From assembly GCA_031972855.1 (NCBI GenBank), contig DALYDY010000001.1:128048-192047 (forward strand): a DNA stretch of 64,000 nucleotides, given 5' to 3'. The translations under genes were made by a program, and so were the position numbers. Position 1 is the stretch's first letter. Every line of letters starts with the position of its first letter. The notes under the pieces were generated by a model. The model was not told the origin of the DNA. It saw only the letters and a list, made by a program, of their open reading frames with translations, and ran no database searches. Of this stretch, positions 33,107 through 49,122 are shown piece after piece. Origin of the DNA: Minisyncoccota bacterium (GTDB lineage: Bacteria; Patescibacteriota; Minisyncoccia; Phycocordibacterales; UBA9973).

Positions 33107-33109
33107 TTA

Positions 33110-33286: not shown

Positions 33287-33367
33287 CATAAACTCTTAAG
33301 CCCGGCTCTAGTAGAGTTGGGCTTTTGATTTTTCTCTATATTTTATGTATTTGTTATAATTAAAAAC

Positions 33368-33949: not shown

Positions 33950-33989
33950 TTTTTGAAAACATCGTATATTTTGATACTATATAAAAATA

Positions 33990-34988: not shown

Positions 34989-34989
34989 T

Positions 34990-35562
34990 ATGCTCTACAC
35001 TGGAAAAGGTGACAAAGGAACAACAAAATTATTCAATACACCAAGTGATGAGCGTATTTCAAAAGGGGATGTTATTTTTGAAGCACTAGGGACTGTTGAT
35101 GAATTGAATGCTTATATAGGATTGTTAAAAGTAAAGGTAGAGAATATGACATTCTTGATGAATCATGAAGAAAAACTCATTTCTCATATTCTTCATACTG
35201 TCCAAGAAAGCCTTTTTGTTGTTCAAGCCGAGCTTGCGGGTGTCCAAATGCATCTTGAAGAAAAGCACACACAAGAACTAAGTGATCTTGTGAACGATAT
35301 AGAAAAAACACTTCCTCCAATTACAACATTTTTTATTTCAGGAGGTACAGAACTCGCAGTTATTTCTGATATAATCCGCACTATTTCGAGAAGATGTGAA
35401 AGGCTTTTGGTTCGAGTTTCTAATCAAAATAAAGAAATTGTGGGGGAATATACGCTTTCTTATATAAACCGTCTCTCAAGTGTGTTTTATGCGTTTTCAC
35501 GCCTGTTTAACCACGAGGCAGGTGTTTCAGATATACCTCCAGGATATAGAAGAGATAAATAG
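34990..35562 (+). CDS. PduO-type ATP:cob(I)alamin (corrinoid) adenosyltransferase
   Basis: MLYTGKGDKGTT...ISKGDVIFEALGTVDELNAYIG N-terminal signature of the PduO/MMAB family; 190 aa. Confidence 0.7.
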   Translation: MLYTGKGDKGTTKLFNTPSDERISKGDVIFEALGTVDELNAYIGLLKVKVENMTFLMNHEEKLISHILHTVQESLFVVQAELAGVQMHLEEKHTQELSDLVNDIEKTLPPITTFFISGGTELAVISDIIRTISRRCERLLVRVSNQNKEIVGEYTLSYINRLSSVFYAFSRLFNHEAGVSDIPPGYRRDK

Positions 35563-35616
35563 TTGAAAAATACACAGAAATATGGTTTAATCGACAGACA
35601 ATAGAATAATGTAGAT

Positions 35617-35689
35617 GGGGATTATGGTGTAACGGTTAACACTGAGGTTTGTGGAACCTTCAATCTGGGTTCGATTCCCAGTAATCCCC
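35617..35689 (+). tRNA. tRNA-His (anticodon GTG) with encoded G(-1); no encoded CCA
   Basis: G(-1)-GGGATTA-TG-GTGT-AACGGTTA-ACAC-T-GAGGT-TTGTGGA-ACCTT-CAATC-TGGG-TTCGATT-CCCA-GTAATCCC-C. Confidence 0.85.
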
Positions 35690-37336
35690 CTTTTCAGGAG
35701 TTAATATAACGGAGTCAGGTAATTTGGTCTGGCGTATAGATACGTTCCGACCCCGACCCCTGACAGGACTTAATATAACTGAGTCATCCGTTGTAATAAT
35801 TCCTTTCTCAAAAGCTCGATCCTTTACCGGATCGGGCTTTTGCGTTGTGTTCCAAATAAGCGCGCCTGTTGCCTCAAGTCCTAACACGATTGGAGATTTA
35901 ATTGCCTCGACGATTAGCTTGTCCTCGGCTTTGAATTGGTCCCAGAAAAGCCCAAGGTACAGGCGTTTCAAATCGTCCGGTGCTTTCTGGTAGGTCTTGC
36001 CGATGTTCCGCATAAGGGCTAGTACGTCTTGGATTACATCAATCTTCAGGTTCTTTGTTTGGTCCAGTTTGTGCATTTCGTCCTCGACTCCATCAATCTG
36101 TTCTCGGTAGCGGACCTTTATTTTGGTGAACGCCGCATCGTCGATGATTCCGTTGATCAGCTTTTCTTCGGCGATCTCAAGTTTGCGCTCGAAGTTTATT
36201 TTTGATGTCATGAACTGTTTCTTTTGATTCCCGACATCGGATTTCTTTTCTTCGTAGATGTCCCGCATTTTCTTCACCACTTTATCTATGAAGTCGTCAG
36301 AGAATTGCAGTCCTTTGAATTTCTCTATGATCTGATTTTCTAAATCAAACACCTCGACGTATTTGTCGGTACATTTCTTTTGGTCATTGGACCGATTGCA
36401 GTGGTAGTACGCTTTCTTTTTCAAAGGGTGATATTCGGCCGTGTATCGTTGGCCGCACTTGTTACAAAATACAAATCCGCGCAGTAGAAAGTTATGCTTG
36501 TGCCGTCTGCATGCGTAGCGATTATTTTCCAGCATGACTCTCTGGCATTTATCAAAAAGCTCTTTGGTGATGATTGCCTCATGCTTGCCGATATCATTCA
36601 TCCCTCGCCACTCCATTCCGCCATAATAAAAAGGGCACTTGATTGTGCGAAACATTTTACTCATCGCCACTCGTTTACCCACGGTGCTGACCAGTCCTTT
36701 CTTGTAGAGCAGATCCCGAATCTCAATCAGGGAATAATCGCCGGTGCTATAGAGTTTGAATCCCTCGGCGATGAGTGGTGCGCGGATCGGGTCTGTCGTG
36801 ATGATTCTTTTCTTTTCGTCGTCGGGAGTTCCCGAGTTGAAGTATCCCATCGGTGCTTTCGTCGGCCACCATCCGTCCTTGTATTTTTGCTCCATGCTCT
36901 TGAGCGTCTTTCGGGAAGTGATCTGCGATTGCAGTTGGTTCACGCCGGCAATTATCAAGTCCATGAAGTTGCCCTCGGGCGTGTCCTCGAGTCCCGGTTG
37001 CGATACCGATATCAGTTCGACGTTGTGCTTTCGCAGGAGTGCCTTGATCGTAAGGTGGTCCCCGGCATTACGGGCGAGTCGGTCCGTATCTTGGACGAAG
37101 ATCGCGCCGATGCTCTTATCCTCTTGGATACGGATCAACATGTCTTGAAGTCCGGGGCGATTCATGTTGGTCGCGCTCTTGCCCGGGTCCTTGTAGACAC
37201 CGTCGTCGGCAAGCTTGAAGGTTTTCATATCTTCAATGCCGCGCTCGCAGAGGCGCAGTTGGGTTTTTAATGAGTGCCGTTCGTCACCGGCTTGTTCATC
37301 GGTGGAAACTCGGCAGTAAATGAGAGCTTTATTCAT
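35660..37336 (-). CDS. Large serine recombinase (resolvase/invertase catalytic domain + recombinase domain + zinc ribbon)
   Basis: N-terminal YCRVSTDEQ catalytic-Ser motif, resolvase-domain conserved Arg/Asp residues, central recombinase domain, C-terminal Cys cluster (CNKCGQ...HCNRS). Start taken at MNKALIYCRVS. The open frame continues antisense through the tRNA-His 3' end before the first stop. Confidence 0.8.
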   Translation of the reverse strand: MNKALIYCRVSTDEQAGDERHSLKTQLRLCERGIEDMKTFKLADDGVYKDPGKSATNMNRPGLQDMLIRIQEDKSIGAIFVQDTDRLARNAGDHLTIKALLRKHNVELISVSQPGLEDTPEGNFMDLIIAGVNQLQSQITSRKTLKSMEQKYKDGWWPTKAPMGYFNSGTPDDEKKRIITTDPIRAPLIAEGFKLYSTGDYSLIEIRDLLYKKGLVSTVGKRVAMSKMFRTIKCPFYYGGMEWRGMNDIGKHEAIITKELFDKCQRVMLENNRYACRRHKHNFLLRGFVFCNKCGQRYTAEYHPLKKKAYYHCNRSNDQKKCTDKYVEVFDLENQIIEKFKGLQFSDDFIDKVVKKMRDIYEEKKSDVGNQKKQFMTSKINFERKLEIAEEKLINGIIDDAAFTKIKVRYREQIDGVEDEMHKLDQTKNLKIDVIQDVLALMRNIGKTYQKAPDDLKRLYLGLFWDQFKAEDKLIVEAIKSPIVLGLEATGALIWNTTQKPDPVKDRAFEKGIITTDDSVILSPVRGRGRNVSIRQTKLPDSVILTPEKGDYWESNPD

Positions 37337-37509
37337 GGTAATTGTAATAGTTAGCTGATAAGGGCAATGCGACGACATTATGCTAGGAACACGGGATATA
37401 GCAATGGTGGGTTTTGTTTTTGTGTCGTATATGTGGTCATTTTTATCGTTTTTCACTACTGGCTTAACTGACGTTATTTTGAAATGGTCCTTATTTCATG
37501 GGCTATTAA

Positions 37510-37869
37510 CTACAGAAATCCGTCATGTCTGTTCCGAGGGTCGATCCAGTCGCCCGGGTACTCTCTGATGATTTCATTGAGTTTCTGTCGCAACTGCGCC
37601 ATTTCAACAGAAAACTGTTCAAGCCGTTCTTTCCATCGGTCAAACTGCGGTCGCTTTTCACGGAGTACTGTCTGTTCTTTCGTAAGGCGTTCGAATGCTT
37701 TCCACATCAGCTTTGTTGCATATGCTCGGTTGAGGTTGTATCCCTTTTCTTTGAGGTAATAGCAAAGCGCACGAGCGCTCATGCTCGTATCTTTGGATAC
37801 GATGTCATAGATGATATCGATATGGTGGTTTGTTTGTTCTGATGAGTATTTCATGGATTGTGAAAACAA
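37510..37869 (-). CDS. Hypothetical small HTH/coiled-coil protein (possible transposase-OrfA-like or recombination accessory factor)
   Basis: 119 aa, GC-rich codon usage like the island; basic helical N-terminus. Weak similarity only. Confidence 0.3.
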   Translation of the reverse strand: MFSQSMKYSSEQTNHHIDIIYDIVSKDTSMSARALCYYLKEKGYNLNRAYATKLMWKAFERLTKEQTVLREKRPQFDRWKERLEQFSVEMAQLRQKLNEIIREYPGDWIDPRNRHDGFL

Positions 37870-38030
37870 AATTCATTCTGGCTTATTCGCTGTTTGGTGG
37901 CTTGTGATGGATTGTCATTCGGTGTTTTCTTAGGGTTTTCAGTATTTTTTGGCACGCGCGTTAGGTTTCTTTTTTTATTTCCTTTATTTTCTTTCTTACC
38001 CCCTCGAAAGTGTTCGGTATGCTGAACACC

Positions 38031-38504
38031 TTATAGCGGTTTAACCCTGAATTTATCAGTAAGATTCTTGATTCCGTCTTGTAAATTTGAACGGTCTTGC
38101 TGTTCATTCTGTCGAATGTTCTGTTCTGTAGGTTGAATCCCTTGTTCGATACACCGAAATCCCTGTTCAGCTTGCCGAACCGAGGCTTGATAAATCCAGA
38201 AGTAATTCACACCTGTTTTATTTTTCGGGAGCTTAATAAGGAACCCTTTCTCGGCGAGTGACTTTCTGGTTTCACTGATCTTGCCACGGGACCAGTTTGG
38301 CAAGCAGTGATCTTTGATGTCTTGAAGTGATAAGTCCTCGATGATACCAAACCGCTCCTCGTCGCGTTTATCCCATCGTGCATGGGTCACATACATGTCG
38401 AAAAGCCGATACTCCTGATCGGTCATCACTTTTTTGTATTCGATAGCCATATATCTATATAGCTTTAGGTAGCCTACGTGTTTTTTCTTCATGTTCATTT
38501 TCAT
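38031..38504 (-). CDS. Hypothetical protein (157 aa)
   Basis: ORF with island-like composition. Confidence 0.35.
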   Translation of the reverse strand: MKMNMKKKHVGYLKLYRYMAIEYKKVMTDQEYRLFDMYVTHARWDKRDEERFGIIEDLSLQDIKDHCLPNWSRGKISETRKSLAEKGFLIKLPKNKTGVNYFWIYQASVRQAEQGFRCIEQGIQPTEQNIRQNEQQDRSNLQDGIKNLTDKFRVKPL

Positions 38505-38618
38505 GCTCGATTTGCATCAAGAGGATTTGGGCGAGACGTTCGACAAAGAAATCCAAGTCTTTTGGATTCAAGGGGACCTGTACAGGGACCGGTTTGTTGT
38601 CGAGCGTCTGGTCCATAA

Positions 38619-38876
38619 TTAATTTACCTCGTAGAGGCGGGTCTTTAACGCTTTGATCTGGTCAAAGTAAGCGCGCGGTTCGACCGACAGCTGACGCTTT
38701 TGGAATTCTGAAACAATGTCTTCAAGTTCCGGAGTCCGGGCGAATATGAATTGCGCTCGCCTCGGTACACTCTTGTCGACATCTTCGAGTGGCACGAACA
38801 GCGAAATTGCCGCCGCGCACGCGAGGTCTGAAGTTTGGTACATAGATTTTTGATTAATAATAATTTTCATAGTCAT
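38619..38876 (-). CDS. Hypothetical protein (85 aa)
   Basis: ORF only. Confidence 0.3.
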   Translation of the reverse strand: MTMKIIINQKSMYQTSDLACAAAISLFVPLEDVDKSVPRRAQFIFARTPELEDIVSEFQKRQLSVEPRAYFDQIKALKTRLYEVN

Positions 38877-39354
38877 TTTTCAAAGAGCTAGCTGAAAACA
38901 AAAAAGAGGACTTGCAACGCAAATCCAATATTGATGGATATGCATCACAAGTCCTCCGGGGTATTCGGCCAGACTTCGAACATTAGTTGTGAAAAGACTA
39001 CTCTCAAATCGTAGCGCGGACCGCTAATGAAGCGCAACTCCTGACAGTGTGGACAAAGTAGTATGCCTAGTGAACCACTTAAAGATTTTATCTTTACGTC
39101 ATAACAACTTTTTGGAATCGAATTGGCCGTATGAGGAGAGCAATAGAACACTTGTTTTTAAAAAGGCAAACAGTGGAGAGATTCCCTGTAGGCTTAGTCT
39201 GGTATCTATAACACCGTGGGGATAACCGATAAAGGTTGTAGATATGCGACAAGTAAAATCTAAAATAACCCTTATTTAAAAGGGCTATTTTTGGAATAGG
39301 GGTCTCTTGTAAATAACTATTTGCAAGTAAAGGCACTTTCTTGTATACTTATGT

Positions 39355-40821
39355 TTGCAAGTGAAAAAGCCTATGAAAACAGAGCAAAAACAAAAAATCT
39401 TTGAATTTATACAGGACCAGATCGCAAATGCTGACTTTAGAATCAAGGCATACGTATTTGATGAGTCCGGGAAGAAGCGTCTCGGGCGTAACTGCTTTGT
39501 GAAGCTTGATATGCATGTACAGAACTTCCTACAAGGAAAATCTCCTATTCGATGGATAACCATGTATGGCTTACGTGGTGCCGGCAAAACTACCTTACTT
39601 GCTCAGTTGTATGAGCAGACGAAAATTGAGAGCAAAAGAAAATTATTTTTATCAGTGGATCAGGCGGTTGGAATTTTTGGAGTTAGTCTCAAAGATATTC
39701 TTGATGTCTACGAAGAATCGCTTGGTACATCCTTCGAACGTCTCACGGAACCAGTCTTCCTTTTTCTTGATGAGGTTCAATACGATGAGAAGTGGGCTCT
39801 ATTACTCAAAACGATTTATGATCGCAGTAGCAAGGTTTTTATTATTGCGACAGGTTCGTCTGCGCTTTCGCTACAAGCGAGTCCTGATGTTGCACGACGC
39901 GCAATTTTTGAAAAACTTTTCCCGATGAGCTTCACGGAATATATAAAGATTAAAAATCAAAAGACAGAAATTCGGGGACTTGCCAAGGAACTACGCGAGG
40001 CGATTTTTAATTCCAAAGATGCTAAAGAGGTTCACACACGTCTTAAGGGTTTGGAAGTAAAAGCTCGGCAGTATTGGTTAGATATAGAACGGAAAGAGAT
40101 TGATTCATATATGCAATATGGGACACTGCCTTTTATGATCGCTCTGAATAATGAGGCAATGGTCTACGATCAAATCAAGAAGACCCTTGAGCGTGTTATC
40201 AGTATTGATATTCCACATATAAATCAATTTTCAGCAGAGACTATATCCAAGATACCAATGGTGCTTTATGCACTTGCAGAAACGGACCAGTTGAGCTTGA
40301 GCAGTCTCGCTGATAAAGGCGAGCTTGATATTAGCCGTCCAGTGCTTACAGCCGTTCTCGAAACTCTGGAAAGAACAGAAACGATTTGGCGTATTTACCC
40401 TCATGGGTCGCATGTAACACAAACAACTCGTCAGCCATCAAAATATCTTTTTACGAGCCCAGCGTTTCGGTCCATGTATTTTAATTTTATAGGAAACACA
40501 AGGACCCACGATACCTATAAAGGGAAAATACTTGAAGATACTGTCGGTCTTTATCTTAATCGCATATTCTCGGGCAAGCCCGACACTTCCGTAACGTACG
40601 ACAGTGCCGCCGGCGGAGCTGATTTCATTATTCGTCAAAGTAAAGACATGATTGTATTGGAAGTCGGGTACGGCGATAAATCGTTTAGGCAAGTTGTAAC
40701 TACAATGGCAAAGGTCGGAGTAAATGCTCGATACGGCATAGTTGTGTCGCAAAGTCCGCTTGCCTTAGATGAAGAGAAAAATGCAGTAAGTATCCCACTC
40801 TCTTATTTTTTGTTGATGTAA
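39355..40821 (+). CDS. AAA+ superfamily ATPase (COG1373/DUF4143-type)
   Basis: Walker A GLRGAGKTTLLAQL, Walker B FLDEVQY, C-terminal DUF4143-like region; 488 aa. Confidence 0.65.
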   Translation: MQVKKPMKTEQKQKIFEFIQDQIANADFRIKAYVFDESGKKRLGRNCFVKLDMHVQNFLQGKSPIRWITMYGLRGAGKTTLLAQLYEQTKIESKRKLFLSVDQAVGIFGVSLKDILDVYEESLGTSFERLTEPVFLFLDEVQYDEKWALLLKTIYDRSSKVFIIATGSSALSLQASPDVARRAIFEKLFPMSFTEYIKIKNQKTEIRGLAKELREAIFNSKDAKEVHTRLKGLEVKARQYWLDIERKEIDSYMQYGTLPFMIALNNEAMVYDQIKKTLERVISIDIPHINQFSAETISKIPMVLYALAETDQLSLSSLADKGELDISRPVLTAVLETLERTETIWRIYPHGSHVTQTTRQPSKYLFTSPAFRSMYFNFIGNTRTHDTYKGKILEDTVGLYLNRIFSGKPDTSVTYDSAAGGADFIIRQSKDMIVLEVGYGDKSFRQVVTTMAKVGVNARYGIVVSQSPLALDEEKNAVSIPLSYFLLM

Positions 40822-40845
40822 AGATCCAGAATAATTAAAATTACT

Positions 40846-41034
40846 ATGAAAATCGACAACCAAGAAAACAAAAAAGAACTCTACATCAAATGCGTAAAAT
40901 GCGGTGATGAGATTTTTTGGAATACGCACAAACAACTAACTTACTGCACATGTAAGGCTATTTATGTTGATGGCTGCGAGGGTTATATCCGGGTCGGCGG
41001 AAATAAAGAGGATCACGTTGAGATTCAAAAATAG
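40846..41034 (+). CDS. Small zinc-ribbon protein
   Basis: CVKCGDE...CTCKAIYVDGCEG Cys pattern; 62 aa. Confidence 0.4.
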   Translation: MKIDNQENKKELYIKCVKCGDEIFWNTHKQLTYCTCKAIYVDGCEGYIRVGGNKEDHVEIQK

Positions 41035-41039
41035 ATCAC

Positions 41040-41372
41040 ATGAATAATCAAAAGATAGAAATTATAAGACAACCAGTATTTAAACCTTTTGAAAGTAGAA
41101 TGGTTCTTTGCGCTGATCCTGTTATCAAAATAAGCGATAAAGAAAAAATAGCCCGCTTTGCTATTTCTATGGTTGATACATCTGTTTTACAGTTGGGAGA
41201 TAATTTTGAAAAATTAAACAAAATGATTAGAGATACTCTCCAGGACGGTGTTCAAGAAAATTTTGAAATAGATGGTGTTTACTACTTTGAATACACAGGT
41301 AGTCATTTCCAACAATTAGATGGGAAACCAGATTGGGCTAATGATTTCTATAGACAAGGTATAAATATTTAA
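41040..41372 (+). CDS. Hypothetical protein (110 aa)
   Basis: ORF only; 6-bp intergenic gaps on both sides (operonic). Confidence 0.35.
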   Translation: MNNQKIEIIRQPVFKPFESRMVLCADPVIKISDKEKIARFAISMVDTSVLQLGDNFEKLNKMIRDTLQDGVQENFEIDGVYYFEYTGSHFQQLDGKPDWANDFYRQGINI

Positions 41373-41377
41373 AATTT

Positions 41378-42847: not shown

Positions 42848-44226
42848 AAAATAACATCTACCCAATTATCGGCATGAGTCCAGGCAATAGCTACTTCAAG
42901 GATGAAGAGATTAAATATCTTCTCAAGACCGCAGTAGACCGCTATGGAAAGGTTGCTGTGATGATTGCTGACATCCCTGCAATCTCGACATATGTCGCAC
43001 TCGGCTATCCTGAAAATCGTGCGCGGCGCGATAAGGCCCTGCCACAAGGAAATCTTTTGAAAAATAGAACTGAGCGGGCCGTCGTCCAACTCGGATACAC
43101 AAAGGATCAGGTAAGGATTATTGATTGGGAAAATGAAATAGAACCGAATGAAAATTACAAAAAGTCGTATAAGTATATTCGGCATCTTTATGAATCAAAC
43201 AAGCAATTTGAACATGATGCCGATGAGACAACTAAGGGTGTCGTCACTGGTTCAAAGAAAGAAATTAAAGATATAGATGTTGCGGTAAAAACTGCGGTCC
43301 ACTACTTGCTTTCAGAATTTGCTTTTCTTGATTTTGCACCCGGATTTTTAGGAGCTGAAAAAATCACCTATATTTATCACAAAAATTGGCCTGTGTATGA
43401 AAACTATATTGCAGGAAAGTATGACGGGAAATCAAAAGACCATGTCGATTTCCTACTCATGGAAAATCCATGGGAGACGTATCGTTCAGTGTGGGGTGAT
43501 GAGGATAATGAGAATGGAAGTTATACATCCGCCCTTGATCGTGTAGAAAAGACAAAGACGCTCCGTGTAGCTTTCACAAACTATCCACCCGCGTTATTTT
43601 ATAATCACGAAACCGATACTTTCTCGGGTATTTTCTATGAGATTATTACTGCAATAGCAGAAAAGCATGGTTGGCAGATTAAGTGGAGCGAAGAGACAGG
43701 ATATGGTGTTGTAATTGATGGATTGGACCATAATCGCTTTGATCTGTTTGGGAGCACTGTTTGGCCGACACCTGAGCGAAAAGAGAAAGCGTCTTTTTCA
43801 AAATCTATGTATACAAGCGAGGCATATCCATGGACGTTTCCAGGATTTGAGTATGAAAAGCTTAAAGATAGTCCTGATCTAAGGGTTGTGGTGAAAGAAA
43901 ACGATATCTCTCATTCGATTGCAATGGCTGATTTTCCAAAAGCACGACTGGTATTTGTACCGCAGCTTTCGGACCCTCAAGAATTGCTGCAATTTGTAGC
44001 TGACGGAAAAGGGGACGTGACGTTTGCAGAAATTAACCTTGTGGAAATTTTTATAAAAGCGAAACAAAAGAAATTGGTACAGGCAACAAGTAGTCCTATT
44101 CGCGTATATGAAAATACTTTTGTTTTCAAAAAAGACGATCCCTCATTAAAAAATCTTATTGATGAAGAAATCGTAGCCATGGTTGCTAGTGGTAAAATGG
44201 AAAAGTTGATAGAAAAATATCTTTAA
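42844..44226 (+). CDS. Two-domain protein: N-terminal cyclodipeptide synthase (CDPS, tRNA-dependent)-like domain fused to C-terminal family-3 solute-binding-protein (SBP_bac_3)-like domain
   Basis: N-terminal ~235 aa align motif-by-motif with YvmC/AlbC-type CDPSs: IIGMSPGNSYFKDEEI vs VGISPFNSRFSEDYI, VAVMIADIPAISTYVALG vs VSVLLAGHEAANLLEALG, AVHYLLSEFAFLDFAPGFLGAEKITYIYH vs [29 protein letters not shown] (catalytic Tyr/Glu positions conserved). C-terminal ~225 aa match amino-acid-binding SBP family 3: LRVAFTNYPPALFY...GIFYEIITAIAEKHGWQIKW...RFDLFGSTVWPTPERKEKASFSKSMY. ATGA start/stop overlap with the helicase gene. Confidence 0.65.
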   Translation: MKNNIYPIIGMSPGNSYFKDEEIKYLLKTAVDRYGKVAVMIADIPAISTYVALGYPENRARRDKALPQGNLLKNRTERAVVQLGYTKDQVRIIDWENEIEPNENYKKSYKYIRHLYESNKQFEHDADETTKGVVTGSKKEIKDIDVAVKTAVHYLLSEFAFLDFAPGFLGAEKITYIYHKNWPVYENYIAGKYDGKSKDHVDFLLMENPWETYRSVWGDEDNENGSYTSALDRVEKTKTLRVAFTNYPPALFYNHETDTFSGIFYEIITAIAEKHGWQIKWSEETGYGVVIDGLDHNRFDLFGSTVWPTPERKEKASFSKSMYTSEAYPWTFPGFEYEKLKDSPDLRVVVKENDISHSIAMADFPKARLVFVPQLSDPQELLQFVADGKGDVTFAEINLVEIFIKAKQKKLVQATSSPIRVYENTFVFKKDDPSLKNLIDEEIVAMVASGKMEKLIEKYL

Positions 44227-44240
44227 CACATAATTAATTC

Positions 44241-44768
44241 ATGACACTACTTATTTTCCAAATTCTCTCAAGCGTTTTTGGTTTTGCAAACAAACTCTTG
44301 CTGTATCTTGGGAAACGAACGGGTTGGATTTTGGGATTTCTGGCGGGAGTATTTTTTGTCGTTTATTTTTTCCTAATCGGATTTACTGTATATGCATTCG
44401 TACAAATAGGATTTAGTCTTTTGATGCTGTATGGATATTTTTCTCATACAGGAATCTCTAAAAATGCAAGAATTTTTGCCACCGTAATTTTATCTTTAAT
44501 CGCTATTATTATTTGCTTTATAACGTTTAACGGCAAACTGACTTTACTTGAAGCAACTTCAGCTTTATTGGCCTCATGGGGCACATACTATCTTGCATCA
44601 AAGAATAATATAAAAGGGTGGGGCATGTACCTTATTGCTCATTTTATCCTTATTTATCTAACCATCATAAAACAACAATATATTTTTGCCTTGTTTCAAG
44701 GGTTGTCAGCAGTCGTTTCGATCTTAGGAATTATTAGATCAGGAGATACTAAAACGAAGGGTTTCTAA
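44241..44768 (+). CDS. Small multi-TM membrane protein (possible PnuC-like transporter; uncertain)
   Basis: 175 aa, 5-6 TM helices, directly downstream of the CDPS-SBP fusion gene. Confidence 0.3.
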   Translation: MTLLIFQILSSVFGFANKLLLYLGKRTGWILGFLAGVFFVVYFFLIGFTVYAFVQIGFSLLMLYGYFSHTGISKNARIFATVILSLIAIIICFITFNGKLTLLEATSALLASWGTYYLASKNNIKGWGMYLIAHFILIYLTIIKQQYIFALFQGLSAVVSILGIIRSGDTKTKGF

Positions 44769-44785
44769 AAGTTTAACTATTAAAA

Positions 44786-44821
44786 AAACCTCATGTTGAA
44801 TTTATACAACATGAGGTTTAA
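44786..44821. terminator. Bidirectional hairpin terminator
   Basis: aaacctcatgttg-aatttataca-acatgaggttt. Confidence 0.7.
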
Positions 44822-44850
44822 CTTTTGATGAAGAGGATTAAACTGTCATC

Positions 44851-45423
44851 TCAGTTCATTTGAGCTTTAATACCGAAAACTTCGCCACCATACGCAAACA
44901 CCTGTTCATCTAACACCTTGATCAAGCTGGAAAGTACTTTGTCTTTCTTTTTTGAATGGGCAAAGATGATGTTTTCAACCGAGATGACAATCTCACCTTT
45001 TTTGAGCTTATTGACACTTTTTTCAAAACTGCCATCGCTATAAGGTATAGATTGGGTAATGATAGTATCAGCGGTTGCTTGTTCAATTTTAATTACGCAA
45101 CTGCCACTCATTCCACTCATCCTGCCTTCAATGCTGTAACGGGCATTTACTATGCGGTTGCCTACACTATCTCTTTGATATGCATCAGGGTCTTTCCATT
45201 CAATGTTGGTTCCAACTGTAGGGAAGTATTTTTTCGCAGTATCGACCATTAAGGCAAACACTGAATCCAATACTTCATTTTTAACAATTTTTGCTTCCAC
45301 CTTTGGAACCTCCTTTGCTACGGGGACCGGAGCGAGAGTGTCATTTCTACTTTCTGGCTCATTAGAGCAAGATGTCATACATAAAGCGATAAACGCAATA
45401 GAAAGATTAAGTAACTTTTTCAT
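44851..45423 (-). CDS. Lipoprotein (hypothetical)
   Basis: Signal peptide with lipobox LCMTSC. Confidence 0.5.
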   Translation of the reverse strand: MKKLLNLSIAFIALCMTSCSNEPESRNDTLAPVPVAKEVPKVEAKIVKNEVLDSVFALMVDTAKKYFPTVGTNIEWKDPDAYQRDSVGNRIVNARYSIEGRMSGMSGSCVIKIEQATADTIITQSIPYSDGSFEKSVNKLKKGEIVISVENIIFAHSKKKDKVLSSLIKVLDEQVFAYGGEVFGIKAQMN

Positions 45424-45533
45424 TTGTTATTTGGTTTTGATTGTTTGAAAAGAACGAATTTCACTGTCAACCCACAACGTTTTGTTATGAACTGAATAAT
45501 GAAGGGAGCTACTTTATTCACTCCCTTTGAGGT

Positions 45534-45944
45534 TTAACCTCCATATGAATTTGAAGAAAGTACCGTCAGGTCTTTATCTCCACCACTCAATTCCCAATCT
45601 CTATCCATTCTCCAACAGGATAATGTTACTTCATCCAAACGATGGATTTGAAGTAACTTGATAGCAGGAAAGTGAATCGCAATGTGAGAAAACCTTGATA
45701 CTTCTGCAAGCTCTATTGTTACACCCAGCGTATCAGCATTCTTTTCGATTTTGGTAATCCCTTTATACCAATCCCATACATAGACAACAGGAATGAAATC
45801 AGGGTCACTGGTTTCTACTGTCATATCCATATCGAGATTGAGCTGATTGATGTCAGTAGGGTTGATGTTATATTTTCTAACACCCAAATTTCTACCTAAT
45901 CGTGTAAGTGTTGCTACACCAAGATGGTTCAATGAAGTTTTCAT
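45534..45944 (-). CDS. Hypothetical protein (136 aa)
   Basis: ORF only. Confidence 0.35.
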   Translation of the reverse strand: MKTSLNHLGVATLTRLGRNLGVRKYNINPTDINQLNLDMDMTVETSDPDFIPVVYVWDWYKGITKIEKNADTLGVTIELAEVSRFSHIAIHFPAIKLLQIHRLDEVTLSCWRMDRDWELSGGDKDLTVLSSNSYGG

Positions 45945-46083
45945 TTTTGAAAGAATTTTACCGCAACGTGCGATGCCGAGATGATTTTTTAGCGTTGTGC
46001 CATTCTGTGAGTTTGTCCATTCTCACTATATCTGCCAATTAAGGAAGCAGAGGAACCTATGCCTGTAGTATAGCACATATACA

Positions 46084-46112
46084 TTGACAAGTCAAGCACA
46101 ATATGCTATGAT
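46084..46112 (+). promoter_or_regulatory. Consensus sigma70-type promoter upstream of the DGR target gene
   Basis: ttgaca-17 nt-tatgat, ~75 nt upstream of the start codon. Confidence 0.5.
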
Positions 46113-46189
46113 TTAACCAGAATACAGTAAACCTCTCGCCGTCTTCGGTATAACGAGTAGAGGCTTCGTTCATTTAAATCTTAATTGTC

Positions 46190-46828
46190 ATGGCAAAATT
46201 TAATGTCACAGGCGACCAACACTTCGGCACCACAGGACAGGTGCTCGAAATTCAACGCCAAATCCGTCTTAAGGGCGGAAGTCCAATCGATCCCGAGCTC
46301 GTTGCTCTTGCACTTCAGGACATCATCGAAGGTAAGTTCAACCGCAGTAAGAAAGAGAATGCAATTCTCAAACTACTGTCGAAAGGCGAATCCATCATCA
46401 TTGATGCATGTGATGGGACCGAAACATTGGCAACTGCCAAAGAAACATTCAAATCTGGTATAGATGGAGACTTCAAGAACTGGGGTACCAACAAGCCGGG
46501 CGTTTCTACTGAAGACACCGCAGTACAGGTTCACGAAATGGTGAAGGACGCTACCTTTGCACAAATGTTCGGCTCCCTCGGGACCGATCTGGACAAGCTG
46601 TGTCTGACACAAGCCCAGATAAAGAACTTTTGCAAAAAGCATCCCAACTGGTTACGCAAAGACGGATATGCGACTTTCTTCCTGTTCAAGGTTGAAGATC
46701 AATTCTTCGTTGCTTTCGTGTACGTGTACTCTGACGGCTTGAACGTCTTCGTGTTCCGGTTCGGGTACGACTTCGTTTGGTTTGCCGAGTGCTCCCTTCG
46801 TCTGGTGGTTCCGCAACTGACCGCTTAG
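46190..46828 (+). CDS. DGR target (variable) protein; C-terminal variable region encoded by the VR
   Basis: The last ~40 codons coincide with the VR (46700-46820). The VR differs from the TR only at TR adenines, mostly in AAC codons. Confidence 0.8.
46700..46820 (+). repeat. DGR variable repeat (VR), 121 bp
   Basis: 121-bp alignment with the TR at 47131-47251: 19 mismatches, all at positions where the TR has A (AA->TT x5, AA->TG, A->T x5, A->G, A->C x2). Confidence 0.9.
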
Positions 46829-47130
46829 TACCTTGTTCTAATGACGCTTATTTTCTTAATCCCTTTGATTCTTCGGAATTGAAGGGATTTTTTTATTTTT
46901 GTATAATGATCGGGCAGTGGTGCAATATGTCGCGGTTACGGCTGCGGGATCACGATTGCTCAAAATCATCATCGAGAATTTTGCCGGCTACGGCTTTCAA
47001 AAGAGTGAAGATTTTTTTGAAATAAAAAAACTTTTCAGTTGGTGCGGTGTGCTTGCGGACTTCTAGGTCCCGAATAAAATACAGCACGGTCCCTGATGGA
47101 AACATGCTTGGATCGGCGGTGGTATAGACG

Positions 47131-47251
47131 GCACAGCGCACAATTCTTCGTTGCTAACGTGAACGTGAACTCTGACGGCTTGAACGTCAACGTGAACCGG
47201 TTCGAGAACGACAACGTTTGGAATGCCGAGAACTCCCATCGTCTGGTGGTT
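47131..47251 (+). repeat. DGR template repeat (TR), 121 bp
   Basis: Non-coding copy of the VR containing AAC-rich sequence (aacgtgaacgtgaac...); sits between the target gene and the RT. Confidence 0.9.
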
Positions 47252-47281
47252 CCGAAAATGATAGTTTTCTCCTCTCTGATT

Positions 47282-47626
47282 TTATTGTCCGAGAGGAGTT
47301 TTCTTTTCAAGCCCCTTTCTCCAACCGCCGAGCATTTTGCCTATCTCATCCAACTGTTCGGAGAGTATTGCATATTTGTCGTTCGGCAGGCATTTGTTCT
47401 CCCACGCCAACTGCAAAAAGAATTTCACCCCGTCGAGCTTTGATATTGAAATGGTGATACGGTTGATCTTCTGATCTCCCGACAGATAGAAGGAAACAAA
47501 AATGTTTTCCAACAGTTCTAAAAAATAGCAGTCTATCTTGCCACCGAGATTGTGGCGGTAGGTCTTGGGAAAATCGGCCAGTAACTTAAACCAGAGTGAG
47601 TACGATGCTTTTGCCTTTATGAGCAC
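47282..47626 (-). CDS. Accessory variability determinant (Avd)-like four-helix-bundle protein, encoded antisense to the TR and RT
   Basis: 114 aa; LWFKLLADFPKTYRHNLGGKIDCYFLELLENI... and C-terminal EIGKMLGGWRKGLEKK resemble the Avd family (compare the bAvd C-terminus VGRILGSWIARVNRKG). Confidence 0.6.
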   Translation of the reverse strand: MLIKAKASYSLWFKLLADFPKTYRHNLGGKIDCYFLELLENIFVSFYLSGDQKINRITISISKLDGVKFFLQLAWENKCLPNDKYAILSEQLDEIGKMLGGWRKGLEKKTPLGQ

Positions 47627-47680
47627 TGAAGGTGCTCGGGGGGGGTAGATTAATTGACATAGTAATTTTAATTAATATTT

Positions 47681-48697
47681 ATGAAAAAATTCGGTCGCTC
47701 TTACCAGAATATCATAACAGTCGAAAATTTGCTCCGCGCGTGGCAGGAATTTTTGTCTGGGAAAAAGAACCGCATCGATGTCGCCGCGTTCCAGAATCGG
47801 CTCATGAATAATATCTGCGATCTGCATCAGGAGCTTGCCGACAAGACCTACCGGCATGGTGCGTATCACGCATTCAACATTTCCGATCCGAAGCCGAGGA
47901 ACATTCACAAGGCTACGGTCCGGGACCGTCTGTTGCACCACTTACTTCACGCCGAAATGTATCCGCACTTCGATAAGAAATTCATTCACGACTCGTATTC
48001 CTGTCGCATCGGCAAAGGTACGCACAAAGCGATGGACCGCTTTCAGGATTTTGGCCGTATCGTTTCCAAAAACGACACTCGCGTATGTTGGGTTCTGAAA
48101 TGCGACATCAGAAAATTCTTTGCAAACATAGACCACGTGATTTTGAAAGATATCATTGCACGGCACATTGAAGATCGCGACTTGTTGGACTTGCTCGGGC
48201 ATATCATCGATAGTTTTTCGACACAGGGCAGGACGGATGTCGGTCTGCCACTCGGCAATCTCACCAGTCAGCTCTTGGTCAATGTCTACATGAACGAGTT
48301 CGATCATTTCATGAAGCGGACGCTCAAAGTTACCCATTACATTCGCTACGCTGATGACTTTGCCATTCTCTCCGAGGATCGGGACTATCTGGCGGACCTT
48401 ATTCCACAAATAGCCGAGTTTCTGGGGGATAGGCTGAAATTGTCCTTGCATCCCGACAAAGTGTTTGTGAAGACGCTTGGCTCGGGCGTTGATTTCTTGG
48501 GGTGGGTTCATTTCCCGCACCATCGGGTTTTGCGTACGGCCACGAAACGGCGGATGTTTGCCAATCCGGGCATTTACGCGGCCGACGAAGCGGTGGTGAA
48601 CTCATATCGCGGGTTGGTTTCTCATGGCAACGGGTGGAAGTTGGTTCGCACGATCGAGGCGGTTTCGGCGAAGGTGTCGTCGTCCGAAATCGGCTGA
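47681..48697 (+). CDS. DGR-type reverse transcriptase
   Basis: RT motifs including YADD (IRYADDFAILS) and the DGR-typical LPLGNLTSQ motif (SQ rather than the group II SP); 338 aa; immediately downstream of TR/avd. Confidence 0.85.
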   Translation: MKKFGRSYQNIITVENLLRAWQEFLSGKKNRIDVAAFQNRLMNNICDLHQELADKTYRHGAYHAFNISDPKPRNIHKATVRDRLLHHLLHAEMYPHFDKKFIHDSYSCRIGKGTHKAMDRFQDFGRIVSKNDTRVCWVLKCDIRKFFANIDHVILKDIIARHIEDRDLLDLLGHIIDSFSTQGRTDVGLPLGNLTSQLLVNVYMNEFDHFMKRTLKVTHYIRYADDFAILSEDRDYLADLIPQIAEFLGDRLKLSLHPDKVFVKTLGSGVDFLGWVHFPHHRVLRTATKRRMFANPGIYAADEAVVNSYRGLVSHGNGWKLVRTIEAVSAKVSSSEIG

Positions 48698-48888
48698 ACG
48701 TGGCCGTTGAAATTCTGGAGGGTGACAAACCCTCGGATGCCGTTTGAAGAGCTCACACAGGGCAAAATACGCGCGAATTATGCCAACTGTAATTCTTTCT
48801 TCTTGTCGGAAATCAGCCTTAGTTTCTCTCGTAAAATTTGCATATACCCCTCGTCGAGAAGTATAGTTAGAAGGTCATTCTGACTCTG

Positions 48889-48932
48889 CCCCAAAAGAGA
48901 AAAAGCCCATAAGGGCTTTTTCTCTTTTGGGG
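48889..48932. terminator. Long perfect palindrome (hairpin terminator) at the right end of the GC-rich island
   Basis: ccccaaaagagaaaaagccc-ataa-gggctttttctcttttgggg. Confidence 0.6.
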
Positions 48933-48974
48933 GATTAAGCAAGTGAACTACTTCACTTGCGTCTGGGAATCGAA
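48929..48974 (-). repeat. tRNA-His 3'-end-like fragment (inverted relative to tRNA-His) interrupted by a 25-nt hairpin insertion
   Basis: Plus strand gggggatta + agcaagtgaactacttcacttgcgt + ctgggaatcgaa. The flanks equal the reverse complement of tRNA-His 3' end GGGGGATTACTGGGAATCGAA (21/21). The insertion is a homologue of the 25-nt insertion at 25169-25193. Confidence 0.7.
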
Positions 48975-49122
48975 AAGCTTTTGCTTATTTATGAAAATCT
49001 TTGATTTGAATAAATGCAAAAGGTGTACTGCTCCTGTAAGGAGAGATTCCTATTAATCTAAAAATTATTTATATTGACTTATAAAAAAATAAATAGTATA
49101 TTACGATAAATAATTTTAATTT

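What the first reader, a model, noticed from the sequence alone, without database searches (positions are those of the whole stretch)
35617..48985. ~13-kb GC-richer insertion abutting tRNA-His with a large serine recombinase
Immediately 3' of tRNA-His the composition switches from AT-rich to GC-rich (many GCGC/CCGG strings) and returns to AT-rich after ~48.95 kb. A large serine recombinase gene (YCRVSTDEQ catalytic motif plus zinc ribbon) starts at 37336 and its open frame runs antisense into the tRNA 3' end. The far boundary carries a degenerate inverted tRNA-His 3'-end copy and a long palindrome. This looks like an integrative element or prophage remnant carrying the DGR and the CDPS operon.
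Basis: partly seen in the sequence, partly recalled or inferred. Interest (0 to 1): 0.7.

Follow-up and report, generated by a model that had tools for sequence, protein, structure and literature searches.

The report
Serine-recombinase island inserted at tRNA-His
A 13.2-kb mobile island has inserted precisely at the end of a tRNA-His gene in a tiny (Patescibacteria) bacterium, using a serine recombinase whose own gene straddles the insertion site so that integration swaps the enzyme's tail; that arrangement turns out to be shared by a large, apparently undescribed, tRNA-targeting recombinase clade.

Summary
The insertion is real and I mapped it to the base. Closely related genomes (flanks 97-98.5% identical) have an empty site where tRNA-His runs straight into the sequence that follows window 48892. 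The island is 35691-48892 (13,202 bp, 42.5% GC against about 31%), with crossover inside a C-run. A sister element at a different site shares homology that stops at the same two ends.

The island has no phage or conjugation genes. It has a backbone (large serine recombinase, DUF5659, 157-aa protein, AAA_14/DUF4143 ATPase) plus swappable cargo (PIF1 helicase, CDPS fusion, PnuC-like protein, a complete DGR).

The recombinase gene spans attP. Integration replaces its last 36 codons, a conserved helix now stranded at 48778-48888, with tRNA-antisense codons.

This holds across the clade:
- 63 of 80 homologous loci have a convergent tRNA (about 2 expected by chance).
- In 60 of those, the reading frame ends inside the tRNA.
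- At least 14 homologues have the tail attached directly, one of them on an 18.8-kb circle.
- Five more integrated elements have displaced tails.

The papers I could search describe serine integrases as not known to target tRNA genes.

The parts
35618..35690 (+). Host tRNA-His(gtg), left intact by the insertion. Its 3'-terminal C-run (35686-35690) is the crossover region on the attL side.
   Evidence: ARAGORN. The empty sites L005 and L004 carry the same tRNA followed directly by the sequence found after window 48892.
35691..48892 (.). The inserted element, 13,202 bp. The position is ambiguous by up to 4 nt because the crossover lies within a C-run.
   Evidence: Comparison with the empty sites. 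Homology with sister element L100 runs exactly from 48892 to 35686. GC is 0.425 against 0.31-0.32 in the flanks.
35660..37336 (-). Large serine recombinase in its integrated form (558 aa). The last 8 codons (DYWESNPD) and the stop codon are antisense tRNA-His sequence.
   Evidence: Pfam PF00239, PF07508 and PF13408. ORF and translation. More than 1000 homologues, of which the named ones are Patescibacteria.
35688..35717 (.). Outer P'-arm and core module, next to the tRNA. This is the crossover site used in the window.
   Evidence: Direct repeat D3. The same junction is used in L100 and L088.
35757..35786 (.). Inner copy of the P'-arm and core module, 69 nt further in. It serves as the junction in L110, L111 and the sister recombinases that end ...SPVRG|AY...
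37510..37869 (-). 119-aa ORF with no family match. It is not conserved in sister elements, so it may not be a real gene.
38031..38504 (-). Backbone gene of 157 aa with a weak match to replication-initiator-O-like proteins.
   Evidence: PHROG 678, E=7e-4. Conserved at the DNA level in L088, L094 and L100.
38619..38876 (-). Backbone gene, DUF5659.
   Evidence: Pfam PF18903. Present in L088, L094, L100 and L112.
39355..40821 (+). AAA_14/DUF4143 ATPase, a backbone gene. It matches the PADLOC candidate defence family PDC-S01.
   Evidence: A homologous gene occupies the same position in L088 and L094.
40846..41034 (+). 62-aa backbone ORF, the counterpart of the DUF7695 genes in L088 and L094.
   Evidence: 80% nucleotide identity to L088 6081-6284 and L094 6088-6291, both annotated PF24749.
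41040..41372 (+). 110-aa cargo ORF of unknown function.
   Evidence: no family match.
41378..42847 (+). PIF1/Dda-like helicase (cargo, or possibly a replication function).
   Evidence: Pfam PF05970, E=4e-32. PHROG 325 Dda-like helicase, E=8e-75.
42844..44226 (+). Cyclodipeptide synthase fused to a family-3 solute-binding domain (cargo).
   Evidence: Pfam PF16715, E=2e-28, and PF00497, E=2e-19.
44241..44768 (+). PnuC-like (nicotinamide mononucleotide transporter family) membrane protein (cargo).
   Evidence: Pfam PF04973.
44851..45423 (-). 190-aa ORF whose N-terminus looks like a lipoprotein signal. No family match (cargo).
   Evidence: Translation. No matches.
45534..45944 (-). 136-aa ORF of unknown function (cargo).
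46190..46828 (+). DGR target gene. The variable repeat (VR) is at 46700-46820, at its 3' end.
   Evidence: Repeat family D1. Within the repeat core, the TR/VR differences are all at TR adenines: 17 A>T, 3 A>G and 3 A>C.
47141..47261 (+). DGR template repeat (TR).
47282..47626 (-). DGR accessory protein Avd.
   Evidence: Pfam PF22296 bAvd, E=9e-13.
47681..48697 (+). DGR reverse transcriptase.
   Evidence: Pfam RVT_1. PADLOC RT, E=5e-54.
48778..48888 (-). Displaced 3' end of the recombinase gene: 36 codons plus the stop, QSQNDLLTILLDEGYMQILREKLRLISDKKKELQLA*. In the excised circle it is in frame with ...TPEKG across the GGGG core.
   Evidence: Sequence. The 115-nt right-end module shared with L100 ends at this stop codon, with 5 synonymous against 2 non-synonymous codon differences. 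It is homologous to the tails attached directly in P0121 and at least 13 other homologues.
48889..48892 (.). attR core (CCCC).
48889..48974 (.). Host sequence, not part of the element: a terminator-like hairpin (48889-48932) and an inverted tRNA-His 3'-end copy (48929-48937 and 48963-48974) interrupted by a 25-nt hairpin.
   Evidence: Present in the empty sites L005 and L004. Hairpin I4.

Best explanation
The region is a 13.2-kb integrative genomic island, recently acquired by a Patescibacteria (Parcubacteria/Paceibacteria-type) chromosome. It is neither a prophage nor a conjugative element.

Its own large serine recombinase (LSR) inserted it by recombining a short attP with an attB at the 3'-terminal C-run of tRNA-His. 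The tRNA stays intact, and the only shared sequence at the two junctions is CCCC.

The element has two parts. A small conserved backbone holds the LSR, a 157-aa O-like protein, DUF5659, an AAA_14/DUF4143 ATPase and a 62-aa DUF7695-like ORF. Next to it sits an exchangeable cargo bay, which here holds a PIF1 helicase, a CDPS-SBP fusion, a PnuC-like protein and a complete DGR.

The recombinase gene spans attP. In the excised circle it would encode about 584 aa ending in a conserved helix (...LLDEGYMQILREKLRLI...). The crossover core lies in the part of the gene that AlphaFold predicts to encode a disordered linker. Integration therefore cuts off the last 36 codons, leaves them at the far end of the island, and replaces them with a few codons read from the antisense strand of the tRNA.

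Shown: the insertion, its ends, its gene content, the split gene, and the generality of the architecture. Inferred: that the LSR catalysed the event, and that the element can still excise. Hypothesis only: that the tail swap tells the enzyme whether it is integrated and so regulates its direction, stability or expression.
For: **Insertion and ends.**
- Empty sites in L005 and L004 align straight across the junction, at 97.3% and 98.5% identity to the flanks.
- Sister element L100 shares homology that begins at 48892 and ends at 35686. L100 is inserted in a protein-coding gene that reads through again once the element is removed.
- GC is 0.425 against 0.31-0.32 in the flanks. A related element sits in a host of about 40-43% GC.

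**Recombinase.** All three LSR domains are present. AlphaFold gives an LSR-like fold with a coiled coil.

**Not a phage or ICE.** PHROGs and Pfam find no structural, relaxase or type IV secretion genes.

**Backbone against cargo.** Comparison with L088, L094, L100 and L112.

**Split gene.**
- The frame runs through the GGGG core into 36 further codons.
- The conserved right-end module ends exactly at that stop codon, with a 5:2 ratio of synonymous to non-synonymous differences.
- The tail is attached directly to the LSR in P0121 and at least 13 other homologues.
- Conserved tail residues use 2-5 different synonymous codons.
- A native-tail LSR sits on an 18,798-bp circular contig with no tRNA.
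- Displaced tails, always on the LSR strand, occur at the far ends of 5 more tRNA-integrated elements.
- In L019 (tRNA-Asn), body and tail join in frame across a shared TGGCTC core.

**Clade-wide tRNA targeting.** 63 of 80 loci have a convergent tRNA, against 2.0 expected by chance. In 60 of these the frame stops inside the tRNA.
Against: - No free circular copy of this particular element was found. The predicted attP junction occurs in two metagenome contigs, but both are chromosomal, LSR-less remnants.
- No recombination directionality factor was identified.
- attP shows no statistically detectable inverted symmetry (8 of 24 positions; 26% of shuffles do as well).
- The central dinucleotide within the C-run is not resolved.
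- AlphaFold gives the tail only a low-confidence helix (pLDDT 44-49) and does not dock it onto the body, so nothing structural supports a function for it.
- The same LSR lineage also inserts into a protein-coding gene (L100), so it is not strictly specific for tRNA.
- The host lineage is inferred from synteny with named MAGs, not from a phylogeny.
Confidence: 0.88

Rival explanations
1. The region is a degraded prophage that entered through the tRNA and has lost its structural genes.
For: It lies next to a tRNA and has foreign GC. DGRs and Dda/PIF1-like helicases are common in phages. The 157-aa protein has a weak match to a phage replication-initiator-O-like family (E=7e-4).
Against: No capsid, portal, terminase, tail or lysis genes were found by PHROGs or Pfam. 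There was no match in IMG/VR for the attP junction. Sister elements of 8-11 kb share the same small backbone with unrelated, defence-like cargo and also lack phage genes. The recombinase, both ends and the displaced tail are intact and under purifying selection, which does not fit a decaying remnant.
Confidence: 0.05
2. The element is a satellite or mobilizable island that depends on a helper (a phage or a conjugative element of the host or its partner cell) to move between cells. The LSR only handles integration and excision.
For: The island has no transfer machinery of its own, yet near-identical backbones occur in hosts with different GC and different flanks. Something must move it between cells. 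The host encodes type IV pilus and competence-like genes (PilB, PilM).
Against: No relaxase, oriT, packaging signal or helper-related gene was recognised. Natural transformation of an excised circle would also account for the spread. This adds to the best explanation rather than competing with it.
Confidence: 0.3
3. The apparent 'tail' is not part of the recombinase. The 115-nt right end is conserved only as the P arm of attP or as a regulatory DNA/RNA element, and the in-frame reading is a coincidence.
For: LSR attP sites do need specific flanking DNA. AlphaFold gives the tail low confidence. The P'-side motif that encodes ...SVILSPVRG could well be constrained at the DNA level.
Against: An LSR P arm needs only about 25 bp, yet conservation runs for 111 nt and ends at the stop codon. 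The differences from L100 are 5 synonymous to 2 conservative. Across 11 lineages the conserved Leu, Asp, Tyr and Ile residues use 2-5 different codons. The same peptide motif is attached directly to the LSR in at least 14 database proteins, down to 43% identity. All 28 profile hits lie on the LSR strand and none on the opposite strand.
Confidence: 0.08
4. The region is ancestral to this lineage, and the 'empty' sites in other genomes are secondary deletions.
For: The same tRNA-His locus is occupied by related elements in many Patescibacteria, so occupancy is common.
Against: The empty sites are seamless: the tRNA is followed by a terminator hairpin whose 5' arm begins inside the tRNA. The island's GC is 11 points above the host's. 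The ends coincide with those of a sister element at an unrelated site. Different occupants of the locus carry different cargo, which indicates repeated independent insertions.
Confidence: 0.02

Closest known systems
Large serine recombinases (serine integrases) of phages and integrative elements, e.g. phiC31, Bxb1, TP901-1, A118 and SPbeta integrases, TndX, CcrAB
   Same: The domain set matches: resolvase catalytic domain with YxRVSTxxQ, recombinase domain, and zinc ribbon with a coiled-coil insert. The integrase gene sits at the edge of the element. The junctions share only a few bases, and the tRNA is not duplicated.
   Different: Characterised LSRs target protein-coding genes or specific intergenic sites. 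The literature I could search says serine integrases are not known to target tRNA genes (PMC4383910), and computational cases unreported and unproven (PMC7192596). Here the whole clade sits at tRNA 3' ends. In addition, the recombinase ORF crosses attP, so its C-terminus changes on integration. By sequence, only the catalytic domain matches solved structures.
tRNA-integrating genomic islands with tyrosine integrases (Islander-type islands, P4-like and pSAM2-like elements)
   Same: The target is the 3' end of a tRNA gene, the tRNA stays functional, the integrase gene lies at the tRNA-proximal end, and the cargo is variable.
   Different: There is no tyrosine integrase. There is no displaced tRNA fragment as a direct repeat at the far end, only 4 nt of identity. 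The chemistry would be the serine recombinase's concerted double-strand cleavage and subunit rotation, which I infer from family membership.
SSV1-type integrases of archaeal fuselloviruses, whose int gene is partitioned by integration into a tRNA gene (background in review PMC8371274; the comparison is from my own knowledge)
   Same: attP lies inside the integrase ORF, the target is a tRNA gene, and integration splits the integrase gene into two parts at opposite ends of the element.
   Different: Those are tyrosine recombinases of archaeal viruses, and the split separates a short N-terminal part and is thought to inactivate the gene. Here the enzyme is a bacterial serine recombinase. Only the last 36 codons are removed, leaving every recognised domain intact.
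Integration-dependent immunity of mycobacteriophages, where attP lies inside the repressor gene and integration removes a C-terminal degradation tag (from my own knowledge; not checked in the library)
   Same: Integration changes the C-terminus of a phage-encoded regulatory protein, so the protein 'reports' whether the element is integrated.
   Different: In that system the affected gene is the repressor and the integrase is a tyrosine recombinase. Here the affected gene is the recombinase itself, and the function of the tail is unknown.
Diversity-generating retroelements of CPR/DPANN organisms and phages
   Same: The island carries an RT, Avd, a TR/VR pair with adenine-specific differences, and a VR at the 3' end of a small target gene.
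   Different: Nothing about the DGR itself is unusual. The notable point is that it rides as cargo at the tail end of this LSR element, in at least two genomes (the window and L110).

Membership tests
Large serine recombinase (serine integrase) | N-terminal resolvase-type catalytic domain with the catalytic serine motif | tested here: met
   PF00239, E=4.5e-25, residues 4-155. The sequence contains ALIYCRVSTDEQ.
Large serine recombinase (serine integrase) | Recombinase domain followed by a zinc-ribbon domain with an inserted coiled coil | tested here: met
   PF07508 (E=1.8e-10) and PF13408 (E=3.4e-11). The AlphaFold model of native homologue P0121 has a long helical hairpin at 347-443 inside the zinc-ribbon region.
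Large serine recombinase (serine integrase) | Short att sites that share only a small central identity (a 2-bp crossover), with no long direct repeats at the junctions | tested here: met
   attB, attP, attL and attR share only a C-run: 5 C in attB and attL, 4 C in attR and in the deduced attP. In L019 the shared core is 6 nt. The exact dinucleotide was not resolved.
Large serine recombinase (serine integrase) | Imperfect inverted symmetry of attP around the central dinucleotide | tested here: inconclusive
   The best ungapped score is 8 of 24 complementary positions, and 5115 of 20000 shuffles do as well. By eye there is a GTTA...TCCTG / CAGAA...TAAC pattern, but it needs a 1-nt slip.
Large serine recombinase (serine integrase) | A separate recombination directionality factor controls excision | not testable with these tools
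   RDFs have no common sequence signature. None of the small ORFs matched a family.
Large serine recombinase (serine integrase) | Catalyses attP x attB recombination | not testable with these tools
   This needs an in vivo or in vitro recombination assay.
tRNA-integrating island with tyrosine integrase (Islander type) | Tyrosine (Phage_integrase) recombinase on board | tested here: not met
   No ORF in 35.6-49 kb matches a tyrosine recombinase family.
tRNA-integrating island with tyrosine integrase (Islander type) | A displaced tRNA 3' fragment forms a direct repeat at the distal end | tested here: not met
   Only CCCC is shared. The tRNA-like fragment near the distal end is inverted and is also present in the empty sites.
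Prophage | Virion, packaging or lysis genes (capsid, portal, terminase, tail, lysin) | tested here: not met
   PHROGs gives only a helicase, a weak O-like match and one unknown family. Pfam finds none.
Integrative conjugative or mobilizable element | Relaxase, coupling protein or type IV secretion genes | tested here: not met
   None among the Pfam hits for the island's ORFs of 62 aa or more. Shorter ORFs, and ORFs with no family match, cannot be excluded.
Diversity-generating retroelement | RT, an accessory protein, a TR/VR pair whose differences lie at TR adenines, and a VR at the 3' end of the target gene | tested here: met
   RVT_1 and bAvd. TR 47141-47261 and VR 46700-46820, with 23 core differences all at TR adenines.
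SSV1-type partitioned integrase | attP lies inside the integrase ORF, so integration splits the gene | tested here: met
SSV1-type partitioned integrase | Tyrosine recombinase of an archaeal virus or plasmid | tested here: not met
   The enzyme is a serine recombinase, and the host is bacterial: PolA, TyrRS, and PilB/PilM with NCBIfam bacterial models.

The most novel reading that the evidence does not exclude
The tail swap is a built-in sensor of integration state. The excised form of the enzyme carries the conserved C-terminal helix on a disordered tether, and the integrated form carries tRNA-antisense residues instead. The two forms would differ in direction (integration against excision), in stability, or in self-inhibition through the coiled coil. 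That would give this clade directionality control that does not depend on, or only partly depends on, a separate directionality factor. Together with the clade's use of the near-universal tRNA 3' end as half of its target, this would be a new operating mode for serine integrases.
Probability: 0.3. Interest if true: 0.85.

Novelty: new variant of a known kind. Interest (0 to 1): 0.72.

Why it matters
At the level of this window, the result shows that a DGR and a cyclodipeptide synthase operon in a genome-reduced Patescibacteria are recent, mobile cargo rather than core genes. It also identifies the vehicle, a small modular island whose cargo bay elsewhere holds defence-like genes.

At the family level, it contradicts a working rule of mobile-element biology, that tRNA targets mean a tyrosine integrase. 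That rule is built into island-finding tools such as Islander.

It also reveals a gene architecture, a recombinase ORF that spans its own attP, which offers a concrete and testable handle on how serine integrases choose direction.

Serine integrases are the main tools for inserting large DNA into genomes. Enzymes that recognise the conserved 3' end of tRNA genes could serve as broad-host-range landing systems, including in organisms that have no genetic tools, such as CPR bacteria.

Tried and rejected
- **Far-boundary features as att scars.** Rejected. The inverted tRNA-like copy and the palindrome are both present in the empty sites.
- **Inverted symmetry in attP.** The ungapped test was not significant. 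I report the by-eye pattern only as a lead.
- **A free circle of this element.** The exact attP junction is absent from IMG/VR. It occurs twice in JGI metagenomes, but both hits are chromosomal, LSR-less remnants joined at the inner core.
- **Exact-protein look-ups.** The RT and the 598-aa GTG-start version of the recombinase ORF were not on record.
- **L087 (P0005) as a possible 14-kb circle.** It is a chromosomal contig with tRNA-His.
- **L094.** I first read it as an excised form. It is a tandem array at tRNA-His with two tails and a duplicated host flank, and I did not resolve its history.
- **L104 (P0116).** It sits next to a second recombinase and polymorphic-toxin genes and told me nothing about integration state.
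- **Solved structures.** Only the catalytic domain matches, so the tail could not be compared with known LSR C-termini.
- **AlphaFold.** The body is confident, but the linker and tail are below pLDDT 50, so there is no structural evidence for what the tail does.
- **Inner repeat as a decayed tRNA fragment.** Rejected. The sequence after it is homologous to the start of the native tail, and L110 and L111 use it as a junction.
- **Literature.** Seven searches and seven papers turned up no prior description, but subscription journals are not covered.

Full report
**1. The observation**

GC rises from about 0.30-0.32 to 0.40-0.49 immediately after tRNA-His(gtg) (35618-35690, + strand) and falls back near 48.9-49.0 kb. 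The island averages 0.425 against 0.323 and 0.305 for the flanks.

A 558-aa ORF on the minus strand (ATG at 37336) carries the three domains of a large serine recombinase (LSR): Resolvase, Recombinase and Zn_ribbon_recom. Its frame runs antisense into the tRNA and stops at 35660.

Inside the region are:
- a cyclodipeptide synthase fused to a solute-binding domain;
- a PnuC-like protein;
- a PIF1 helicase;
- an AAA_14/DUF4143 ATPase;
- DUF5659;
- a complete DGR: target gene with VR at 46700-46820, TR at 47141-47261, bAvd and RT. The 23 core TR/VR differences are all at TR adenines.

**2. The decisive test: an empty site**

Exact-protein look-ups of the flanking genes found contigs from other samples in which the left and right flanks are adjacent (L005 from GCA_020049755.1 and L004 from ENA). 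In both, the tRNA-His 3' end ...AGTAATCCCCC is followed directly by AAAAGAGAAAAAGCCC..., the sequence that follows window 48892. A reconstructed empty site aligns without a break across the junction, at 97.3% (L005) and 98.5% (L004) identity.

So the insert is 35691-48892 (13,202 bp). The crossover lies within a C-run: attB and attL have five C's, attR has four, and the deduced attP has four.

It follows that the 20-nt-arm hairpin (48889-48932) and the inverted copy of the tRNA 3' end (48929-48937 and 48963-48974, split by a 25-nt hairpin) are native host sequence. The hairpin's 5' arm begins inside the tRNA, and it looks like the tRNA's terminator.

**3. Independent confirmation of the ends**

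A recombinase in the same 90%-identity protein cluster (P0127; the gene is 90% identical to ours at the DNA level) sits on an 8-kb element (L100-L103). That element is inserted in a roughly 171-aa host gene, not at a tRNA, and the gene reads through again when the element is removed. Homology between that element and the window begins at 48892 and ends at 35686, the same two junctions.

Apart from the recombinase gene itself, the shared DNA amounts to the DUF5659/157-aa region, a 42-nt piece, and a 115-nt right-end module. Everything else differs: AbiEii and a DUF87 ATPase there, against PIF1, CDPS, PnuC and the DGR here.

Two further relatives share the same backbone with other cargo:
- L088, with an 89%-identical LSR, also at tRNA-His, carries a 1516-aa helicase-nuclease.
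- L094 carries a methylase and a GmrSD/HNH protein.

The element is therefore a small modular island with a conserved backbone and an exchangeable cargo bay.

PHROGs, PADLOC and Pfam find no virion, lysis, relaxase or type IV secretion genes. The only hints at replication are a weak O-like match for the 157-aa protein and the Dda/PIF1-like helicase. The host of L088 has about 40-43% GC, close to the island's 42.5%. That fits recent arrival from a GC-richer patescibacterial lineage.

The host of the window is bacterial (PolA, TyrRS, PilB, PilM). It shares the CobAT/tRNA-His/tRNA-Leu/L19/PilM neighbourhood with MAGs labelled Parcubacteria and relatives.

**4. The recombinase gene spans attP**

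Homologues more than 90% identical to ours all share ...SVI(L/I)SP(V/E)RG and then diverge at exactly the crossover point.
- Most continue with peptides such as AYRDLNPN, DYRELNPN or, in ours, DYWESNPD. These are what the antisense of a tRNA T-arm encodes.
- One (P0121) continues QWSTFIIPILEDKEYMTSLSCKLRAIL...

Reading our gene across the deduced attP, from 35691 on to 48892 and downwards, gives in frame ...TPEKG|QSQNDLLTILLDEGYMQILREKLRLISDKKKELQLA*. This resembles the P0121 tail (E=2e-4 for that single comparison).

The evidence that this tail is genuine coding sequence:
- The 115-nt right-end module shared with L100 ends exactly at this stop codon (48778-48780). It differs by five synonymous and two conservative codon changes.
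- Among 133 homologues, about 63 end in tRNA-antisense peptides, about 36 stop within two residues of the core glycine, and at least 14 carry a native tail with the motif (I/L)I(T/P)xLxDx(E/G)YMxxLKEKLxxIK.
- Across 11 lineages the conserved Leu, Asp, Tyr and Ile positions are encoded by 2-5 different synonymous codons, so the constraint acts on the peptide.
- One native-tail recombinase (P0104) lies on an 18,939-bp k141 contig. Another contig bridges its two ends with exactly 5,083 + 141 = 5,224 nt, so it is an 18.8-kb circle with no tRNA.
- A profile of the tails finds displaced tails at the far ends of five more tRNA-integrated elements (L011, L012, L014, L017, L019). All 28 significant hits are on the recombinase strand and none on the other strand.
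- In L019 (43% identity, tRNA-Asn) the body ends ...SNWL|RW* inside the tRNA, and the displaced tail 9.4 kb away begins ...YWL|PSPELTITLENWAYMGMLKEKL. Both junctions share TGGCTC, the antisense of the tRNA's GAGCCA end, and the join reproduces the native consensus.

AlphaFold on a native homologue folds the body confidently to about residue 495. It predicts residues 499-543, the part encoded by the P' arm and core, as disordered, followed by a short low-confidence helix that corresponds to the tail. An att site embedded in a linker-coding stretch would explain how DNA-level and protein-level constraints can coexist there.

**5. tRNA targeting is a property of the clade**

A scan of one genome per species with an alignment of the family returned 80 loci, from Patescibacteria (31-65% identity) and from Bacteroidota, Actinomycetes, Verrucomicrobiota, Melainabacteria, Chloroflexota and others (25-33% identity).

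In 63 of the 80, a tRNA gene on the opposite strand lies immediately 3' of the recombinase. In 60 of those 63, the frame stays open to a stop codon inside the tRNA. From the density of other tRNAs in the same loci, about 2 such cases are expected. The targets are His (18), Glu (12), Arg (8), Asn (7), Leu (6) and nine other tRNA types.

The papers I could search say the opposite or leave it open:
- The TIGER paper found 14 of 297 S-Int islands at t(m)RNA genes, called this previously unreported, and asked for experimental proof (PMC7192596).

I found no description of a serine recombinase gene that spans attP. Subscription journals are not covered, so prior work cannot be excluded.

**6. How it most likely works**

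Shown: the island is an insertion at the C-run of tRNA-His, it carries an intact LSR at the tRNA-proximal edge, and the junctions share only CCCC, as expected for serine rather than tyrosine chemistry.

Inferred: the LSR bound attP and an attB whose conserved half is the tRNA's acceptor 3' strand and T-arm, cut at a CC dinucleotide, and exchanged strands. The tRNA stays whole. Its terminator hairpin is rebuilt at attR because the element supplies the four C's.

After integration the enzyme loses its 36-residue helix and gains eight tRNA-antisense residues. The tail remains at the far end, ready to be rejoined on excision.

Hypothesis (about 0.3): this swap makes the enzyme's properties depend on integration state, through direction, stability or self-inhibition. 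That would be analogous in logic to integration-dependent immunity in mycobacteriophages and in architecture to SSV1-type integrases, although both of those use tyrosine recombinases.

How the island moves between cells is unknown. It has no transfer genes, so a helper element or natural transformation is needed.

**7. Loose ends**

- The window carries two tandem P'-core modules 69 nt apart (35688-35717 and 35757-35786). The outer one was used here and in L100 and L088. The inner one is the junction in L110, L111 and the sister enzymes.
- L110 is an LSR-less derivative at the tRNA-His locus of a related host. It carries the same DGR (91.8% identity) and is flanked by a roughly 107-nt repeat of the host flank.
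- No free circle of this exact element was found.
- attP symmetry is not significant.
- No directionality factor was identified.

**8. Verdict**

The island itself is a new member of a known kind. Its recombinase belongs to a large clade that is, as far as I could find, undescribed. The clade's tRNA targeting and attP-spanning gene make it a new variant of serine integrase systems.

Noticed in passing
window 48889-48974 (also L005 1955-2042 and L004 47-134): Downstream of tRNA-His the host has a long inverted repeat. The tRNA's 3' half plus 16 nt is mirrored by GGGCTTTTTCTCTTTTGGGGGATTA...CTGGGAATCGAA, with a separate 25-nt hairpin inserted in the mirrored copy. It is present in the empty sites, so this insertion did not create it. 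I cannot say whether it is a terminator, a relic of an older event, or a pseudo half-site for the recombinase.
   Followed up: partly
window 35688-35717 and 35757-35786: Two tandem copies of the P'-arm and core module lie 69 nt apart (83% identical) inside the recombinase's 3' coding region, giving the repeated peptide DSVILSPVRG...DSVILTPEKG. The outer core is the junction here and in L100 and L088. The inner core is the junction in L110, L111 and the sister enzymes. One possibility is two alternative attP sites matched to two tRNA-His 3'-end types (...TAATCCCCC and ...GGCACCC).
   Followed up: partly
window 42844-44768: The cyclodipeptide synthase is fused to a family-3 periplasmic solute-binding domain, and a PnuC-like transporter gene follows it. 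This is an unusual architecture for a CDPS, and I did not examine it further.
   Followed up: no
L100 3556-3684 and 11644-12051 (also L101-L103): An LSR in the same 90%-identity cluster as the window's, with identical element ends, is inserted in a roughly 171-aa protein-coding gene (...GDGIVTG|GATGVDYFAM...) at a G-run instead of at a tRNA. The lineage therefore has at least one non-tRNA target, and it disrupts that gene.
   Followed up: yes
L110 2159-7100 (Ga0265340_10000007): A related host carries the same DGR cassette (91.8% identical to window 46367-48892) in a 4.9-kb LSR-less island at its tRNA-His locus. The island is bounded by a roughly 107-nt direct repeat of the host flank that includes the start of the next gene (MEEYLEFAKK...).
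   Followed up: partly
L094 11555-16632; L014 2006-9318: These are arrays at tRNA-His. In L094 the LSR, with its native tail, lies 4.85 kb from the tRNA, with a second tail and a duplicated host flank in between. L014 has four tail-like segments upstream of one LSR. Both suggest tandem accretion or decay of elements at this hot spot.
   Followed up: partly
L106-L108 (ENA k141_518993 and relatives): An 18.8-kb circular element carries a native-tail LSR, an AlwI-type restriction enzyme, two N6/N4 methyltransferases and an RNase H. It has no tRNA and no recognisable phage genes.
   Followed up: partly
proteins P0031, P0045, P0050, P0053, P0069: Five homologues end, right after the core glycine, in a shared peptide AVVEDVRTVFER(K/R)NDATIYIP. 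It resembles neither tRNA antisense nor the native tail. It could be a different conserved target or a second type of tail.
   Followed up: no
L001 and L002 (Logan run SRR6410602): Contigs 100% identical to the window's left and right flanks both break close to the junctions, inside tRNA-His and at window ~48970. This could reflect occupied and empty alleles coexisting in that sample, or simply tRNA repeats breaking the assembly graph.
   Followed up: no
window 17715-35690: Seven tRNA genes are clustered in 18 kb: Lys, Arg, Ser, Arg, Val, Leu, His. The order Ser(tga)-Arg(tct)-Val(tac)-Leu(gag)-His(gtg) recurs in several Patescibacteria MAGs (L007, L009, L014, L026, L088), so the neighbourhood of the integration hot spot is conserved.
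   Followed up: partly
window 39355-40821; L088 1528-6078; L094 2407-6085; L100 3910-7504: The cargo bays of sister elements hold defence-like genes: a helicase-nuclease with DUF559, a methylase with GmrSD/HNH, and AbiEii with a DUF87 ATPase. The backbone AAA_14/DUF4143 ATPase matches the PADLOC candidate family PDC-S01. This element family may act as a carrier of defence and diversification genes in CPR bacteria.
   Followed up: partly
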